DNA of 12,128 nt from UHGV virus genome UHGV-0067634. One strand, given 5' to 3'. Positions within the stretch are counted from its first letter, which is position 1; each line of letters begins with the position of its first letter. The notes under the pieces were generated by a model, which saw nothing but the letters and a program-made list of their open reading frames with translations, did not search any database and was not told the origin of the DNA. Positions 698 through 10,919 of the stretch are shown one piece after another. This DNA is from a virus. The position numbers were made by a program, and so were the translations under genes.

Positions 698-1846
698 ATG
701 ACTAACCAGTTTGCCATTACCATTGCTATATCCTGCTTCGTGATTGCGATGGTGATCTTCAGTTTGCCAGTCTTCAAATTCCTGGACGAAGAGGCTCAAC
801 CAAAGAGAACGAACAGTCTTGATGGGATGAGATTTATTCTTGCATCATTGGTAATATTTCATCACATGGACTGTTTTTATTCTTACTATACCACAGGTAA
901 ATGGGAGCCAGTTTCCTACTTTCTTTTCGCTGCCGGAAAGTATGGCGTTGCACTTTTTTTTATGACTACAGCTTACCTTTTTTGGGGCAAGGTAAGGATA
1001 AAAGATAGTGTTGATTGGGTTTCACTCTACAGAGGACGGTTTTTCAGGATTATCCCTTTAGCTGTATTCGCATCATTTGTCGCTATAATTTCATTGTTTA
1101 TTTTCACTAAGCCGTTCCCTCTGTATAACACCCCAATTTCAAATATATTTTCTTGGTTCGATGGTAGCTTATGGGATCACAAACCACCAGTAACAACGAT
1201 GCAGCGTCCAACTATAGCTTTGGCGGGTGTAACCTGGACTTTAAGATGGGAGTGGATGTTTTATTTTACTCTCCCTGCACTCTTTTTCTTTAGGAAACTT
1301 TCTTTTGAAATTTCAATAATTTTATTAGCATTTTCAATTTACCTCATGCCAAGCATAACCAAAGATGCATATCTTTGGTCATTTTTCTTCGCAGGAATGG
1401 TTTGCAGAGAGTTAAAGGAAAGAGTTTATATAACTGAGTCAAATGCAGAGTGGTTTTTATTAGCATCAATAATCCTCATCATAGTTGTCGACCCCACACT
1501 ATTTCGTGTTCCCGGAACGATATTCCTTGCCTTTATATTTTTCTCAATTTTGTCTGGAGGTAGCCTCTTTGGTTTACTCAAAACAAGAGCAGCTATTAGG
1601 CTTGGAACTATAAGTTATAGTCTATATATCACTCAAGGTTTAATTTTATTCCCTGCATACAACCTGTATATAAAAGAGTTTACGTTAAATCTTGATAGTT
1701 CATATTTTATATTCCTTTGCATGTCATACGCTGCCATTTGTTTTTTATCAGCAACAACCTATCATTTCATTGAGCTTCCTTTTATGAAAATAGGAGGTAG
1801 GAAAAGCACTAAGAAGCTAAACCAAGCCAATGTCTTAGATAAATGA
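698..1846 (+). CDS. Acyltransferase family 3 integral membrane protein, putative O-antigen O-acetyltransferase (serotype conversion)
   Basis: 382-aa ORF, hydrophobic throughout. Motif R-x3-LDGMRFILASLVIFHH resembles the acyltransferase-3 signature (R..LDGLRGIA....H) of Oac/OafA-type proteins. Sits in the slot between tailspike and phage end where P22 has gtrABC and Sf6 has oac. Visibly AT-rich versus the structural genes. The motif is preceded by a ~36-aa hydrophobic extension, so the true start is uncertain. Confidence 0.75.
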   Translation: MTNQFAITIAISCFVIAMVIFSLPVFKFLDEEAQPKRTNSLDGMRFILASLVIFHHMDCFYSYYTTGKWEPVSYFLFAAGKYGVALFFMTTAYLFWGKVRIKDSVDWVSLYRGRFFRIIPLAVFASFVAIISLFIFTKPFPLYNTPISNIFSWFDGSLWDHKPPVTTMQRPTIALAGVTWTLRWEWMFYFTLPALFFFRKLSFEISIILLAFSIYLMPSITKDAYLWSFFFAGMVCRELKERVYITESNAEWFLLASIILIIVVDPTLFRVPGTIFLAFIFFSILSGGSLFGLLKTRAAIRLGTISYSLYITQGLILFPAYNLYIKEFTLNLDSSYFIFLCMSYAAICFLSATTYHFIELPFMKIGGRKSTKKLNQANVLDK

Positions 1847-5775: not shown

Positions 5776-5874
5776 CGGTGAGTTAATTTTTGCATTTACC
5801 TGGGCCATATTGACTACTTATAAAATGAGATCAATATTTAATCGCCCAATAACGGGTGTATGTTGAGGTATATC

Positions 5875-6054
5875 ATGGCGAAAAAACCAGGTGAAAACAC
5901 AGGAAAAAACGGCGGAATATACCAAGAAGTTGGCCCACGCGGCGGTAAGAAAGACAATTTTGCCACCGTCAAGGACAACGAAAGGCTTCCACCAACAACA
6001 AAGCCAGGTCATGGCTGGGTATTGGATAAGCGAACTCCAGACAGCAAAAAGTAA
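5875..6054 (+). CDS. Small Lys/Gly-rich hypothetical protein (59 aa), in the position of P22 orf59a
   Basis: ATG at 5875 with a GAGG RBS about 8 nt upstream. Product MAKKPGENTGKNGGIYQEVGPRGGKKDNFATVKDNERLPPTTKPGHGWVLDKRTPDSKK. Same strand as mnt and followed by a terminator. Length and position match what I recall of P22 orf59a; homology not verified. Confidence 0.55.
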   Translation: MAKKPGENTGKNGGIYQEVGPRGGKKDNFATVKDNERLPPTTKPGHGWVLDKRTPDSKK

Positions 6055-6059
6055 TAATC

Positions 6060-6082
6060 AAGCCGGGTCACTCCGGCTTTTT
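6060..6082 (+). terminator. Rho-independent terminator after the 59-aa ORF
   Basis: Stem AAGCCGG, loop GTCACT, stem CCGGCTT, then a T-run ending at 6082. The hairpin overlaps the last four codons (KKPE) of the convergent minus-strand ORF 6068..6433. Confidence 0.55.
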
Positions 6083-6433
6083 GATATGTCGCTCGCAGAA
6101 CTCAACAAGCCTGCTCATTAAGTAGCAGTAAGTCTCGTTGGCTCTTCCTGGTTCAACATCAACACCTACCCTTGAGCAGATATCGAATGCCATGTGAGCG
6201 CACTCATGGGCAATAGTAGATAGTTTGCCATTGAACACGCCTATCACATGCAAAACACCATTCTCGCTACTCATTGTATGAGACGCTCCGTTGGCGTCCG
6301 AGTCATGCACGTCAACGCCAAGTTTTTGATGCAGGCGTTGCCATTCTGGAAAGTCTCTACAAAACACAATTGTACCGCTCTCAAAGAGCGGTACGAGCAT
6401 CTTTGGTACGTTTCCAATGTTAACTTTTTTCAT
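6068..6433 (-). CDS. Hypothetical protein with HExxH zinc-metallopeptidase motif (possibly ImmA/IrrE-like)
   Basis: 121-aa ORF; ATG at 6431..6433 with AGGA 4 nt upstream. Motif IAHECAHMAF, followed 14 residues later by E-PGR-AN-ETYCYLM, which resembles the HExxH...E..AN.FA..LL pattern of M78-type peptidases. A perfect TATAAT sits upstream on the minus strand (plus coordinates 6463..6468). Confidence 0.55.
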   Translation of the reverse strand: MKKVNIGNVPKMLVPLFESGTIVFCRDFPEWQRLHQKLGVDVHDSDANGASHTMSSENGVLHVIGVFNGKLSTIAHECAHMAFDICSRVGVDVEPGRANETYCYLMSRLVEFCERHIKKPE

Positions 6434-6467
6434 GGTATCCTGCGCAAAACTAAGGAGAGTTAATTAT

Positions 6468-6953
6468 ATGAAAAAATCACTGTTAATTATCCCGCTTCTG
6501 CTGGCTGGGTGCGCAAAAGTAAGCGACTATCAGGCAAGTTGCGAGCAACGCTATCCAAAGCTTAGCGATATGGCTAATTGCCTTGATGCCAGCTTGAAGA
6601 ACGACTCTCGCATGGCATCAGCACCAACACCTAAGCTGTATGTCCTTGCTGCGAAGATGCTCGGGCAAGGTGTCGATGAAGGCAAGATAAGTGACACACA
6701 GGCAAGACTTGAACTTCAGAATCTTTATGTTCAATTACAAAGCCAAGAACAAGCACAACAAATAGCACAAAGCCAAGCATTCCAGCAGGCTTTATTGAAT
6801 TATCAGGCTGTAAACACAATGCAAGCGATCGAGCAAAAAGCGCGCCAGCCTGTTATAACTCAACCTTACCCAACACGCGTTGACACATATACAAACTGCA
6901 ATTCAGGATTTGGAAACACGGTAACATGCAACAGTAGCAGTAATATCAGATAG
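6468..6953 (+). CDS. Putative lipoprotein (161 aa) with Gln-rich predicted coiled region; candidate superinfection-exclusion or moron protein
   Basis: ATG at 6468 with a strong AAGGAGAG RBS. N-terminus MKKSLLIIPLLLAGC is a lipoprotein signal peptide with lipobox LAGC, and Ala at +2 suggests outer-membrane sorting. Central Q/A/L-rich segment; two Cys pairs flank it. Occupies the gene16-proximal slot where P22 carries sieA; homology to SieA not established. Confidence 0.7.
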   Translation: MKKSLLIIPLLLAGCAKVSDYQASCEQRYPKLSDMANCLDASLKNDSRMASAPTPKLYVLAAKMLGQGVDEGKISDTQARLELQNLYVQLQSQEQAQQIAQSQAFQQALLNYQAVNTMQAIEQKARQPVITQPYPTRVDTYTNCNSGFGNTVTCNSSSNIR

Positions 6954-10226: not shown

Positions 10227-10919
10227 TTAAAACAACGAGCCAAGCAATCCGATACCAGCGCCAATGCCAGCCCCCCACGGTGTTGATGTTCCAAGAAGGC
10301 TGGCAAGACCTGCACCGGCAATCGCACCAGACGTGCCGCCGCTAATTGCTGTCTGAAGACTTGATGGTTTATTGGCATTAGCAGCGGCAAGTGCTGCGCT
10401 TTGCTGTGCAATGCTGCTCATGTTGTTGGCGTATGTCTGCCCGGCGTTCGCCTGACCTTGCAGCGCACCAAGGCCAATGTTTGCCAGATTGTTGTAGTTG
10501 CTCATCTGGTTTGATAACCAAGACTGACCGAGAGTCGGCGCGATCGTAGCCAGTTGATTGCTTGTGGCTGTCGAACCAAGTCCTCCCGTAGCCTCCGCAG
10601 CAGCAAGACTCTGGTAACGAGCCTGACCTGCAAGGTCTTTATACTGCTGAGAGTTGTAATACTGATTAAGTGCCTGACCCTGTCCTTCTAAACTGGAAAG
10701 GTTCTGAAGCTGGTTAACATACTGCTCCGCAAGCGGCGTGAACGGAGCAAGGTTTTTCATGATTGTCTGCCACTGCTGATTTTGCAGGTCTGCGGCATAC
10801 TTCTGAGCTTCTGCTGCATACTTTGCGCTTTTATCAGAGCTGCCACCTTTCCCGCCTTTTTCAGGGCAATAAGGTTCCTCGCCGCGCAGTTTTCTGCCCA
10901 GCTTAAATGCATATAACAT
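10227..10919 (-). CDS. Ejection (E) protein, P22 gp7-like
   Basis: 230-aa ORF with AGGAG RBS. N-terminus MLYAFKLGRKLRGEE... and a Gly/Ala-rich hydrophobic C-terminal tail (…GAGIGAGIGLLGSLF) fit a membrane-inserting ejection protein. Confidence 0.8.
   Translation of the reverse strand: MLYAFKLGRKLRGEEPYCPEKGGKGGSSDKSAKYAAEAQKYAADLQNQQWQTIMKNLAPFTPLAEQYVNQLQNLSSLEGQGQALNQYYNSQQYKDLAGQARYQSLAAAEATGGLGSTATSNQLATIAPTLGQSWLSNQMSNYNNLANIGLGALQGQANAGQTYANNMSSIAQQSAALAAANANKPSSLQTAISGGTSGAIAGAGLASLLGTSTPWGAGIGAGIGLLGSLF

What the first reader, a model, noticed from the sequence alone, without database searches (positions are those of the whole stretch)
6068..6433. Small HExxH metallopeptidase-like ORF in the accessory slot between gene 16 and mnt
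This 121-aa ORF has HECAH and a downstream E...AN...Y..LM pattern resembling minimal ImmA/IrrE (M78) or related zincin peptidases. Such peptidases usually pair with XRE-type repressors; here the nearest regulators are the ribbon-helix-helix proteins Mnt and Arc, and it is divergent from a lipoprotein gene. It could be a regulator-cleaving protease, an anti-defence factor, or part of an exclusion module. This is the most plausible candidate for an undescribed function in the window.
Basis: partly seen in the sequence, partly recalled or inferred. Interest (0 to 1): 0.65.

Follow-up and report, generated by a model that had tools for sequence, protein, structure and literature searches.

The report
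Small phage zinc-protease gene hkcC
The ORF is a real, strongly conserved gene (hkcC of phages P22 and HK620) that most likely encodes a very small zinc protease found in many phages. Its target and role are still unknown, and it is not an ImmA/IrrE-type repressor-cleaving protease.

Summary
Window 6068-6433 (minus strand) encodes a 121-aa protein with HECAH at residues 76-80 and ANETYCYLM at residues 98-106.

It is 99.2% identical to the P22/HK620 gene hkcC, which the literature lists as of unknown function. All 80 related viral loci carry it intact, and 26 of 28 polymorphic sites are third codon positions.

An exhaustive HMMER search finds 546 cluster representatives, mostly about 120 aa. 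H76, E77 and H80 were required when choosing the 123 sequences compared; in these, E100 and G49 each fail in only one sequence, and Y104 is near-invariant.

The AlphaFold model (pLDDT 89) has minimal gluzincin topology. No Pfam family passes threshold, and there is no M78 signal. SprT-like is sub-threshold in 28 of 96 members. The best supported relative is the HExxH domain of N4-like virion RNA polymerases (hhalign probability 90-94%).

The gene runs in the same direction as the flanking phage operon in very different phages. Its own subclade usually carries a convergent YjzC-family gene (orf59a) and a shared terminator.

Most likely it is a stand-alone accessory metallopeptidase acting on another protein. 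The substrate is unknown; counter-defence is the leading guess.

The parts
6068..6433 (-). hkcC coding sequence, 121 aa plus stop; predicted minimal gluzincin-type metallopeptidase
   Evidence: ORF listed. It is 99.2% identical to hkcC of P22 and HK620. It matches phrog_1365 at E 1.7e-39. It is intact in 80 of 80 related viral loci, with 26 of 28 polymorphic sites at codon position 3. The AlphaFold2 model has pLDDT 89.
6194..6208 (-). Codons for H76-E77-C78-A79-H80: the HExxH motif, inferred to supply two zinc ligands and the catalytic base
   Evidence: Read from the sequence. H76, E77 and H80 are invariant in the independently chosen 96-sequence alignment A3. In the 123-sequence set the motif was a selection criterion. 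The motif lies in predicted helix 71-88.
6116..6142 (-). Codons for A98-N99-E100-T-Y-C103-Y104-L105-M106; E100 is the predicted third zinc ligand at the start of the 'glutamate helix'
   Evidence: E100 is kept in 122 of 123 sequences, Y104 in 118, L105 in 111, C103 in 100 and N99 in 92. Helix 100-116 is predicted in the model. The roles of these residues are inferred from the general zincin mechanism (PMC5512222).
6286..6288 (-). Codon for G49, nearly invariant, just before strand 49-56
   Evidence: G49 is kept in 122 of 123 sequences. It aligns with the invariant Gly before the strand pair in the N4-like vRNAP HExxH domain.
6438..6441 (-). AGGA Shine-Dalgarno, 4 nt upstream of the hkcC ATG
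   Evidence: Read from the sequence.
6060..6079 (.). Bidirectional intrinsic terminator hairpin (P22 't mnt'), shared by hkcC and the convergent orf59a. Its stem overlaps the last hkcC codons, K-P-E-stop.
   Evidence: Found on both strands by the terminator scan. Annotated as t mnt in P22-pbi. A hairpin in the same place is kept, with base changes on both arms, in the Rosenbergiella, Klebsiella, Xenorhabdus, metagenomic and Pasteurellaceae copies.
5875..6054 (+). orf59a, 59 aa, YjzC family; convergent partner gene of the hkcC subclade
   Evidence: Matches phrog_3202 and PF14168 YjzC below threshold at E 0.0017. UniRef names relatives as 'YjzC family'. It lies convergent, 8-16 bp from hkcC, in P22-likes, siphovirus prophages and a Pasteurellaceae prophage. 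The AlphaFold2 model is a three-stranded all-beta protein with pLDDT 86.5.
6403..6433 (+). Equivalent of the P22 'P sieA' promoter, inside the first 31 nt of hkcC, pointing at the lipoprotein gene
   Evidence: Coordinates were transferred from the P22-pbi annotation (locus L001 3604-3634 corresponds to window 6403-6433). The consensus scan did not detect it.
6372..6394 (-). Perfect 10-bp hairpin inside hkcC codons 14-21, with a U-rich tail on the minus strand; meaning unknown
   Evidence: Found by the terminator scan. It folds at -17.7 kcal/mol, and only in the P22/HK620/E. coli lineage.

Best explanation
The ORF is hkcC, a non-essential accessory gene of P22-like phages. It encodes a stand-alone, cytoplasmic, minimal gluzincin-type zinc metallopeptidase.

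Inferred mechanism:
- H76 and H80 on the active-site helix, and E100 at the start of the next helix, hold one zinc ion.
- E77 activates the catalytic water.
- The conserved G49 and the 49-66 strand pair form the edge that binds a substrate chain.
- Y104 probably lines the active site.

The protein is a free-standing relative of the HExxH ('MPTase') domain that N4-like phages carry inside their ejected virion RNA polymerase.

In this prophage no promoter of its own was detected. The gene lies on the late-operon strand between gene 16 and the tailspike, so it should be made by antiterminated late read-through rather than in the lysogen.

Its job is to cut one or a few specific proteins in trans. 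The most likely class of target is a host, resident-prophage or rival-phage protein that interferes with phage growth, that is, counter-defence or host takeover. In the hkcC subclade it travels with the convergent, lysogen-oriented YjzC-family gene orf59a and a shared terminator.

What is shown: gene identity, purifying selection, the motif conservation pattern, the predicted fold, the remote homology and the contexts.

What is inferred: zinc binding, catalysis, expression timing and the class of target.
For: Identity and selection:
- 99.2% identical to P22/HK620 hkcC.
- Intact in 80 of 80 loci; 26 of 28 polymorphic sites are at codon position 3.

Family:
- 546 representatives at E<=1e-3, nearly all about 120 aa.
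- G49, H76, E77, H80 and E100 are invariant in the 96-sequence alignment A3. In 123 representatives pre-selected for HExxH, E100 and G49 are each kept in 122 and Y104 in 118.

Fold:
- AlphaFold2 model, pLDDT 89, pTM 0.83, topology b-b-a-b-b-a(HExxH)-a(E). This matches the zincin MPTase core described in PMC5512222.
- BFVD gives 26 phage proteins at E<1e-3 with TM up to 0.83, a few labelled SprT-like or metalloprotease.

Sequence links:
- SprT-like is the only recurrent Pfam signal, in 28 of 96 members, best E 1e-4, always sub-threshold.
- hhalign against an alignment of the N4-like vRNAP HExxH domain gives probability 90.5%, E 1.3e-6 over 57 columns, and 94% with the insert removed. The control against Orf59a gives 0.1%.

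Accessory, operon-embedded gene:
- Same orientation as the flanking operon in P22-likes.
- Between lysis genes and terminase in ST64T and epsilon34.
- Next to terminase or portal genes.
- Between tail tube and tape measure genes.
- After replication genes in locus L099.
- In the block of small, unannotated genes beside the divergently oriented terminase cluster of N4-like phages, which I take from knowledge of N4 genome layout to be the early region.
- No sigma-70-like promoter upstream on its strand.
Against: - No biochemical or genetic data exist, and none were found in the papers searched.
- No curated family passes threshold.
- hhalign against E. coli SprT/YggI fails, with probability 6%.
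- The vRNAP alignment covers only the part up to HExxH. The glutamate-helix segment alone aligns only at 'NE', with no significance.
- I could not inspect the model coordinates, so the convergence of H76, H80 and E100 on one site is assumed from topology.
- The gene sits in different positions in different phages: late operons, what appears to be the N4-like early region, and between the DNA ligase and RNA polymerase genes of a T7-like phage. No single time of action can be inferred.
- The PADLOC search (a library of defence systems, not of anti-defence proteins) found nothing, and no neighbour links it to a particular defence system.
Confidence: 0.5

Rival explanations
1. HkcC and Orf59a are a functional pair. 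Orf59a (YjzC family) is made in the lysogen, either from P_mnt read-through or from its own promoter. HkcC is made late in lytic growth and removes or is restrained by Orf59a, as protease and substrate or protease and inhibitor. The cassette would then switch a prophage-state function off when the phage goes lytic.
For: - Every hkcC copy at 46% identity or more that I examined outside the one deletion lineage, apart from two damaged or partial copies (L105 and L106), has a convergent orf59a 8-16 bp away with a terminator hairpin in the same place. This holds in podovirus, siphovirus and lambdoid contexts and in Salmonella, E. coli, Morganella, Klebsiella, Rosenbergiella, Xenorhabdus, Proteus and Pasteurellaceae.
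- Orf59a is more conserved (64-81% identity) than HkcC (46-63%) in the same loci.
- The two genes are on opposite strands, so their expression states should be opposed.
- Orf59a is predicted to be a folded small beta protein.
- A candidate promoter lies upstream of orf59a at 5810-5838.
Against: - Ten of 80 near-identical loci keep hkcC and the terminator but have lost orf59a at one shared junction, so the phage tolerates hkcC alone.
- Orf59a homologues at 68-74% identity occur with no HkcC-family gene within 4 kb.
- YjzC-family genes also occur in phages of Firmicutes.
- The rest of the HkcC family (identity 42% or less) has no orf59a.
Confidence: 0.2
2. HkcC is a virion-associated or morphogenetic protease. 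Either it is packaged and ejected with the DNA, like the vRNAP domain it resembles and like the neighbouring ejection proteins, or it trims a virion protein during assembly.
For: - It is homologous, at hhalign probability 90-94%, to a domain of an ejected protein (PMC13434306).
- Its position is directly after the ejection-protein genes 7, 20 and 16.
- In other phages it lies inside structural operons: between TerL and portal, and between tail tube and tape measure genes.
- Some homologues carry long basic C-terminal tails.
- Iyer et al. propose processing roles for such domains.
Against: - The one known P22 virion-protein cleavage, removal of the first 20 residues of gp7, is done by host OpdA (PMC8402733).
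- Many P22-like phages lack hkcC or carry only the paralogue elsewhere in the genome.
- The homologues in N4-like phages sit in what appears to be the early region, and a phiKMV-like phage has one between the DNA ligase and RNA polymerase genes.
- From my own knowledge, HkcC is not among the reported P22 virion proteins; I did not check this with a tool.
Confidence: 0.12
3. HkcC is an ImmA/IrrE-like anti-repressor protease that cleaves a phage regulator (Mnt, Arc, C2 or a rival prophage's repressor).
For: - It is a zincin next to the immI regulators.
- In three contexts (P22-likes, Proteus L098, Pasteurellaceae L099) a ribbon-helix-helix gene lies just upstream of orf59a, facing hkcC.
- hkcC cassettes often sit near antirepressor-type genes of the Ant, KilA-N or Rha kinds.
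Against: - There is no M78 Pfam signal in the protein or among the 25 families listed for 96 relatives.
- No XRE-type partner is present.
- Three siphovirus contexts have no adjacent regulator.
- The family is present in virulent N4-like and T7-like phages that have no lysogeny switch.
- From established knowledge, P22 immI control is fully explained by Mnt, Arc, Ant and sar; I did not test this here.
Confidence: 0.08
4. The HExxH site is not a peptidase site. The protein binds metal for a structural or binding role, or catalyses a different hydrolysis.
For: - No activity has ever been shown.
- From my own knowledge, E. coli SprT and several small zincin-like proteins have no proven substrates.
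- The N4 vRNAP HExxH domain also has no shown activity.
- HExxH also occurs in non-protease enzymes, as noted in PMC13434306.
Against: - The catalytic Glu (E77) is invariant along with the metal ligands in the 96-sequence alignment A3. That is expected for catalysis rather than for metal binding alone.
- The predicted topology is the zincin peptidase core.
Confidence: 0.08

Closest known systems
hkcC of coliphage HK620 and Salmonella phage P22 (SE1 gp64, UAB_Phi20 gene 40; PHROG 1365)
   Same: It is the same gene: 98-99% amino-acid identity, in the same place between gene 16/sieA and orf59a-mnt, on the same strand. It matches phrog_1365 at E 1.7e-39.
   Different: Here the neighbouring sieA is replaced by an unrelated lipoprotein gene. 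The literature lists hkcC only as 'unknown function', and some P22 records do not annotate it at all.
HExxH / zincin-like 'MPTase' domain (C1 subdomain, residues about 2124-2375) of the virion RNA polymerase of N4-like phages; MPTase domains of phage and plasmid polyvalent proteins (Iyer et al. 2017, PMC5512222)
   Same: The profile-profile match has probability 90.5-94% over 56-57 columns. It covers a strand, the backing helix, the conserved Gly, the strand pair and the HExxH helix. Both have an 'NE' at the start of a later helix, followed by a small residue and an aromatic residue at +3 and +4. [quoted passage not shown]
   Different: HkcC is free-standing at 121 aa, with 19 residues between the last His and the Glu. 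The vRNAP domain has an insert of about 77 residues there and is embedded in a 3500-aa ejected protein. The Glu-helix match is not significant on its own. Neither protein has a shown activity.
SprT-like family (Pfam PF10263; SPRTN, Wss1, the ArdC C-terminal domain)
   Same: It is the only Pfam family hit repeatedly by family members: 28 of 96, best E 1e-4. Some structural neighbours in BFVD are labelled SprT-like. From general knowledge it is also a small zincin used by mobile elements.
   Different: No member reaches the Pfam threshold. The window protein has no hit at all. hhalign against E. coli SprT/YggI fails. From my own knowledge, not tested here, SprT-type proteins use a third His and often a zinc ribbon, whereas HkcC has a Glu 20 residues after the motif and no ribbon.
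ImmA/IrrE (peptidase M78), including CapP and PprI
   Different: There is no PF06114 signal, no XRE/HTH substrate gene alongside, no sensor domain, and a different register of the Glu motif. Family members also occur in virulent phages.
Minimal gluzincins (thermolysin-type HExxH plus Glu spacing; minigluzincins; zincin-like protein PDB 3e11)
   Different: There is no detectable sequence relationship, and all structural scores are weak.

Membership tests
hkcC / PHROG 1365 | Sequence match to the family profile and to the named P22/HK620 gene, in the same genomic position | tested here: met
   phrog_1365 at E 1.7e-39 over residues 1-121. 99.2% identity to the P22 and HK620 copies. Same flanking genes.
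Zincin / gluzincin metallopeptidase fold | An HExxH motif on a helix, with both His and the Glu conserved across the family | tested here: met
   H76, E77 and H80 are invariant in the 96-sequence alignment A3, which was not filtered on the motif. 170 of 177 family sequences match H[E/D]xxH. The motif lies in predicted helix 71-88.
Zincin / gluzincin metallopeptidase fold | A third metal ligand (Glu) on the following helix | tested here: inconclusive
   E100 is kept in 122 of 123 sequences and starts predicted helix 100-116. I could not inspect the model coordinates, so its closeness to H76 and H80 is not verified.
Zincin / gluzincin metallopeptidase fold | A mixed beta-sheet plus backing helix ahead of the active-site helix, and structural similarity to solved zincins | tested here: inconclusive
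Zincin / gluzincin metallopeptidase fold | Zinc binding and peptidase activity | not testable with these tools
   This needs purified protein, metal analysis and cleavage assays.
MPTase domain of N4-like vRNAP / polyvalent proteins | Profile-level homology to the vRNAP HExxH domain | tested here: met
   hhalign of A3 against A6 gives probability 90.5%, E 1.3e-6, and 94% with the insert removed. Against the single N4 sequence it gives 70%. The negative control gives 0.1%. The match covers only the part up to HExxH.
MPTase domain of N4-like vRNAP / polyvalent proteins | Being part of a large multidomain protein delivered with the DNA | tested here: not met
   HkcC is a stand-alone 121-aa protein. 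Most of the listed top 150 of the 546 relatives are 100-140 aa.
SprT-like (PF10263) | A Pfam match at or above the gathering score | tested here: not met
   The window protein has no hit. 28 of 96 relatives hit at E<=1, best 1e-4, all below threshold. hhalign against E. coli SprT/YggI gives probability 6%.
ImmA/IrrE (peptidase M78, PF06114) | A Pfam M78 match | tested here: not met
   No PF06114 hit at E<=1 for the window protein or its 17 close relatives. It is not among the 25 families listed for 96 relatives.
ImmA/IrrE (peptidase M78, PF06114) | An adjacent cognate HTH/XRE repressor gene as the substrate | tested here: not met
   The neighbours are ribbon-helix-helix proteins (Mnt, Arc) and a lipoprotein. 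Most family contexts have no regulator next to the gene.
Anti-phage defence systems (PADLOC) | A match to a known defence-system protein model | tested here: not met
   No PADLOC hit at E<=1 for HkcC, Orf59a or the lipoprotein.

The most novel reading that the evidence does not exclude
HkcC is a free-standing version of the protease domain that N4-like phages fuse to their ejected RNA polymerase. Made late, next to the ejection-protein genes, it would be loaded into the virion in low copy, or act at the moment of lysis or entry. There it would cut a host or resident-prophage protein that blocks incoming DNA. The lysogen-expressed Orf59a, encoded on the opposite strand, would be its built-in restraint or its prophage-state counterpart. 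That would make hkcC-orf59a a two-state counter-defence and defence cassette that moves between unrelated phage types.
Probability: 0.12. Interest if true: 0.7.

Novelty: new member of a known kind. Interest (0 to 1): 0.45.

Why it matters
P22 is one of the best-studied phages, yet hkcC has sat in its immI/sieA region as 'unknown' for over twenty years and is missing from several reference annotations.

This analysis places it in a family of about 550 clusters of 120-residue zincins with a conserved catalytic set. It links that family to the unexplained HExxH domain of N4 virion RNA polymerases. That gives two systems one testable question: what do these minimal phage proteases cut?

If the target is a host defence or exclusion protein, this would add a proteolytic class to phage counter-defence. 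It would also provide a very small, tractable model enzyme.

The conserved hkcC-terminator-orf59a cassette gives the widespread but uncharacterised YjzC family its first genetic handle.

Tried and rejected
- Curated libraries gave no assignment. Pfam, NCBIfam and PADLOC scans of the protein returned only chance lantibiotic hits caused by the 'HEC' string.
- Profile searches of PDB sequences gave nothing with the close alignment. With the broad alignment they gave only non-significant zincin and vRNAP hits.
- Foldseek against the PDB found nothing. The AFDB library was unavailable.
- hhalign against E. coli SprT/YggI failed.
The close alignment returned mostly near-identical P22-like loci.
- Obligate toxin-antitoxin or protease-inhibitor pairing with Orf59a: rejected, because each gene occurs without the other.
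- Secreted or periplasmic enzyme: rejected, because I saw no signal peptide or hydrophobic segment on reading the sequence.
- Morphogenetic protease for gp7: rejected, because host OpdA does that cleavage.
- Literature searches for hkcC, phage metalloprotease counter-defence, SprT-like phage proteins and P22 accessory-gene screens found no functional data.
- The P22 small-RNA paper did not cover this region.
Full report
**What is there.** The window is the late-operon end of a P22-like prophage of E. coli. On the minus strand, running from high to low coordinates, it carries:
- gene 14 (DUF2824), gp7, gp20 (Inj_translocase) and gp16;
- then the target ORF;
- then arc, ant and a Head_binding/beta-helix tailspike.

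On the plus strand lie an Acyl_transf_3 gene, mnt, orf59a and a lipoprotein gene. The 1.2-kb region around the ORF is 99.8% identical to chromosomal prophages in 19 complete E. coli genomes. Parts of it occur in 298 of 5426 genomes.

The ORF at 6068-6433 (minus strand) is 121 aa. HECAH occupies residues 76-80, and A98-N-E100-T-Y-C-Y104-L-M follows.

**It is a known gene with no known function.** Bases 5800-6461 are 98% identical to phage P22 itself. The protein is 99.2% identical to the P22 and HK620 product. HK620 names it hkcC, and UAB_Phi20, SE1 and others annotate it as hypothetical. Villafane et al. list 'hkcC, 59a' as the two P22 genes of unknown function in this region. The P22-pbi and RefSeq P22 records do not annotate it; they show only 'P sieA' and 't mnt' there. 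It matches phrog_1365, 'unknown function'. No functional report turned up in the library searched.

**It is a real gene under purifying selection.**
- All 80 related viral loci have an intact copy.
- Of 28 polymorphic sites, 26 are third codon positions, and only three residues vary.
- Relatives at 43-78% identity keep the motifs.
- An exhaustive HMMER search with the alignment finds 546 cluster representatives at E<=1e-3 and 151 at E<=1e-10. Nearly all are 100-140 aa, so this is a stand-alone family.
- G49, H76, E77, H80 and E100 are invariant in the 96-sequence alignment A3.
- In 123 full-length representatives pre-selected for an HExxH motif, E100 and G49 are each kept in 122, Y104 in 118, G90 in 112 and L105 in 111.
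- The few sequences without the motif are frameshifted or truncated fragments, plus one HKAAH variant.

**Fold.** AlphaFold2 with the 18-sequence alignment gives pLDDT 89.1 and pTM 0.83. The predicted elements are strands 11-13, 21-25, 49-56 and 59-66, and helices 28-37, 71-88 (carrying HExxH) and 100-116 (starting at E100). This is the zincin MPTase core as Iyer et al. describe it: a sheet, an N-terminal helix, an HExxH helix and a Glu helix.

Structure searches are only weakly informative.
- Foldseek against the PDB finds nothing.
- Foldseek against BFVD finds 26 phage proteins at E<1e-3, with TM up to 0.83. Most are uncharacterised, and a few are labelled SprT-like, metalloprotease or IrrE.
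- AFDB was unavailable.

**Sequence relationships.** No Pfam, NCBIfam or PADLOC family is hit. Scanning 96 diverse members one by one, the only recurrent family is SprT-like. It appears in 28 members, best E 1e-4, always below threshold. M78 is not among the 25 families listed. hhalign against E. coli SprT/YggI fails.

A profile search of PDB sequences gives only non-significant hits. They are zincins (myroilysin, peptidyl-Lys metalloendopeptidase, BMP1) and, notably, N4-type virion RNA polymerases. I followed this up by building an alignment of that vRNAP region from eight Schitoviridae.
- hhalign of the HkcC family against it gives probability 90.5%, E 1.3e-6 over 57 columns. The match runs from strand 2 through the backing helix, the conserved Gly and the strand pair to HExxH.
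- With the vRNAP insert removed the probability is 94%.
- A control against Orf59a gives 0.1%.
- The Glu-helix segment alone aligns only at 'NE', with no significance. Both families do have N-E-x-x-small-aromatic there.

This vRNAP region is the MPTase domain of Iyer et al. and the C1 subdomain in the 2026 N4 structure paper. Its function is still open.

**Context and expression.** hkcC lies on the late-operon strand. Only 34 bp separate its ATG from that of the divergent lipoprotein gene. By homology with the P22-pbi annotation, the promoter for that gene ('P sieA') lies inside the first 31 nt of hkcC. The scan finds no sigma-70-like promoter on the hkcC strand between 6434 and 7100. I therefore infer that hkcC is expressed by antiterminated late read-through and not in the lysogen. 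This inference is untested.

Across the family, the gene runs in the same direction as whatever operon surrounds it:
- between lysis genes and small terminase, in the 38%-identical paralogue clade that includes ST64T orf129 and epsilon34 gene 70;
- after the lysozyme gene in mEp044;
- upstream of terminase, or between TerL and portal, in metagenomic phages;
- between the tail tube and tape measure genes in Rosenbergiella, Klebsiella and metagenomic siphovirus prophages;
- after replication genes in a Pasteurellaceae prophage;
- in the block of small unannotated genes beside the terminase cluster of N4-like phages, which I take to be the early region;
- at two different places in Autographiviridae.

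Some P22-likes carry both paralogues. This is the pattern of a mobile accessory gene, not of a core morphogenetic or regulatory gene.

**The hkcC-orf59a cassette.**
- Every copy at 46% identity or more that I examined, except two damaged or partial copies and one deletion lineage, is followed 8-16 bp later by a convergent 59-61-aa gene homologous to P22 orf59a. This holds in podovirus, siphovirus and lambdoid backgrounds.
- The terminator hairpin between them overlaps the last hkcC codons (K-P-E-stop). It is kept with changes on both arms.
- Orf59a belongs to the YjzC family and is predicted to be a three-stranded beta protein with pLDDT 86.5.
- Orf59a is more conserved than HkcC in the same loci.
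- The link is not obligate. Ten of 80 loci share one junction that removes orf59a but keeps hkcC and the terminator.
- Orf59a homologues at 68-74% identity also occur with no HkcC-family gene nearby.
- YjzC genes occur in phages of Firmicutes as well.

**Interpretation.**
- Well supported (about 0.8): the protein is a stand-alone minimal gluzincin-type metallopeptidase.
- Supported at hhalign probability 90-94%: it is related to the vRNAP/polyvalent-protein MPTase domain.
- An inference from distribution only (about 0.35): it acts in trans on a host or competitor protein as a counter-defence or takeover factor.
- Rivals, with my estimates: a functional pair with Orf59a (0.2), a virion or processing role (0.12), an ImmA-like repressor protease (0.08), and a non-catalytic role (0.08).

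The ImmA/IrrE reading fails its membership tests, and the presence of the family in virulent phages also argues against it. The processing reading is weakened because the known gp7 cleavage is done by host OpdA.

**Verdict.** The specific family and the partner logic are not supported. The gene is already catalogued but uncharacterised. I rate it a new member of a known kind, with interest 0.45.

Noticed in passing
window 6468-6953 (+), with 6403-6461: A 161-aa lipoprotein gene (lipobox LLAGC, phrog_6067, no Pfam hit) sits exactly where P22 has sieA. Homology to P22 stops 6 nt before its ATG, so it inherits the P22 sieA promoter and ribosome-binding region. In Morganella P22-likes the same slot holds SIEA-family, Rap1a-like or other small genes. 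It looks like a swap slot for superinfection-exclusion genes.
   Followed up: partly
window 6372-6394: A perfect 10-bp inverted repeat (GTACCGCTC-TTT-GAGAGCGGTAC) lies inside hkcC codons 14-21, with a U-rich tail on the minus strand. It is present only in the P22/HK620/E. coli lineage. Homologues that encode the same VPLFESG peptide lack it. It may be a terminator for transcripts that are not antiterminated, or an operator upstream of P sieA.
   Followed up: partly
window 6060-6079: The bidirectional terminator (P22 t mnt) is built partly from the last codons of hkcC (AAG CCG GAG TGA). A hairpin at this place is kept, with changes on both arms, in distant copies. This probably explains the conserved KKPE/KKPA C-terminus.
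   Followed up: yes
window 5875-6054 (+); promoter-like site 5810-5838 (+): orf59a belongs to the YjzC family, which is otherwise known mainly from Firmicutes. It has 108 clusters of close relatives and is predicted to be a small three-stranded beta protein. A sigma-70-like site (TTGACT-17-AATATT) lies just upstream, so it may be transcribed on its own as well as from P_mnt.
   Followed up: partly
window 10227-10919 (-): gp7 keeps the N-terminal sequence ...YCPE|KGGKGG. This matches the mature N-terminus (KGGKG) produced by host OpdA cleavage in P22 (PMC8402733).
   Followed up: no
window 698-1846 (+): A 382-aa Acyl_transf_3 membrane acyltransferase gene lies downstream of the tailspike. It may be an O-antigen-modifying lysogenic conversion gene.
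   Followed up: no
proteins P0049, P0063, P0067, P0116, P0133, P0150, P0170 (family members): A subset of family members carries 40-70-residue Lys/Glu-rich C-terminal tails. Two of them end in a similar motif (VPRIARYKRG and VPRVMSFKRW), which hints at a docking or nucleic-acid-binding extension.
   Followed up: no
loci L086 and L087 (Pseudomonas phage phCDa, Klebsiella phage vB_Kpn16-P2): These two N4-like phages encode a free-standing HkcC-family protein among small, unannotated genes that appear to be the early region. N4-like phages generally also carry the related HExxH domain inside their ejected RNA polymerase, as seen in the eight I aligned; I did not check these two.
   Followed up: partly
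loci L114-L118 (Salmonella prophage carrying an orf59a homologue): This orf59a homologue has no hkcC nearby. It sits in an accessory cluster next to GmrSD_N/HEPN genes or a HigB/HTH pair, between the lysis and terminase genes. The neighbourhood looks defence-rich.
   Followed up: no
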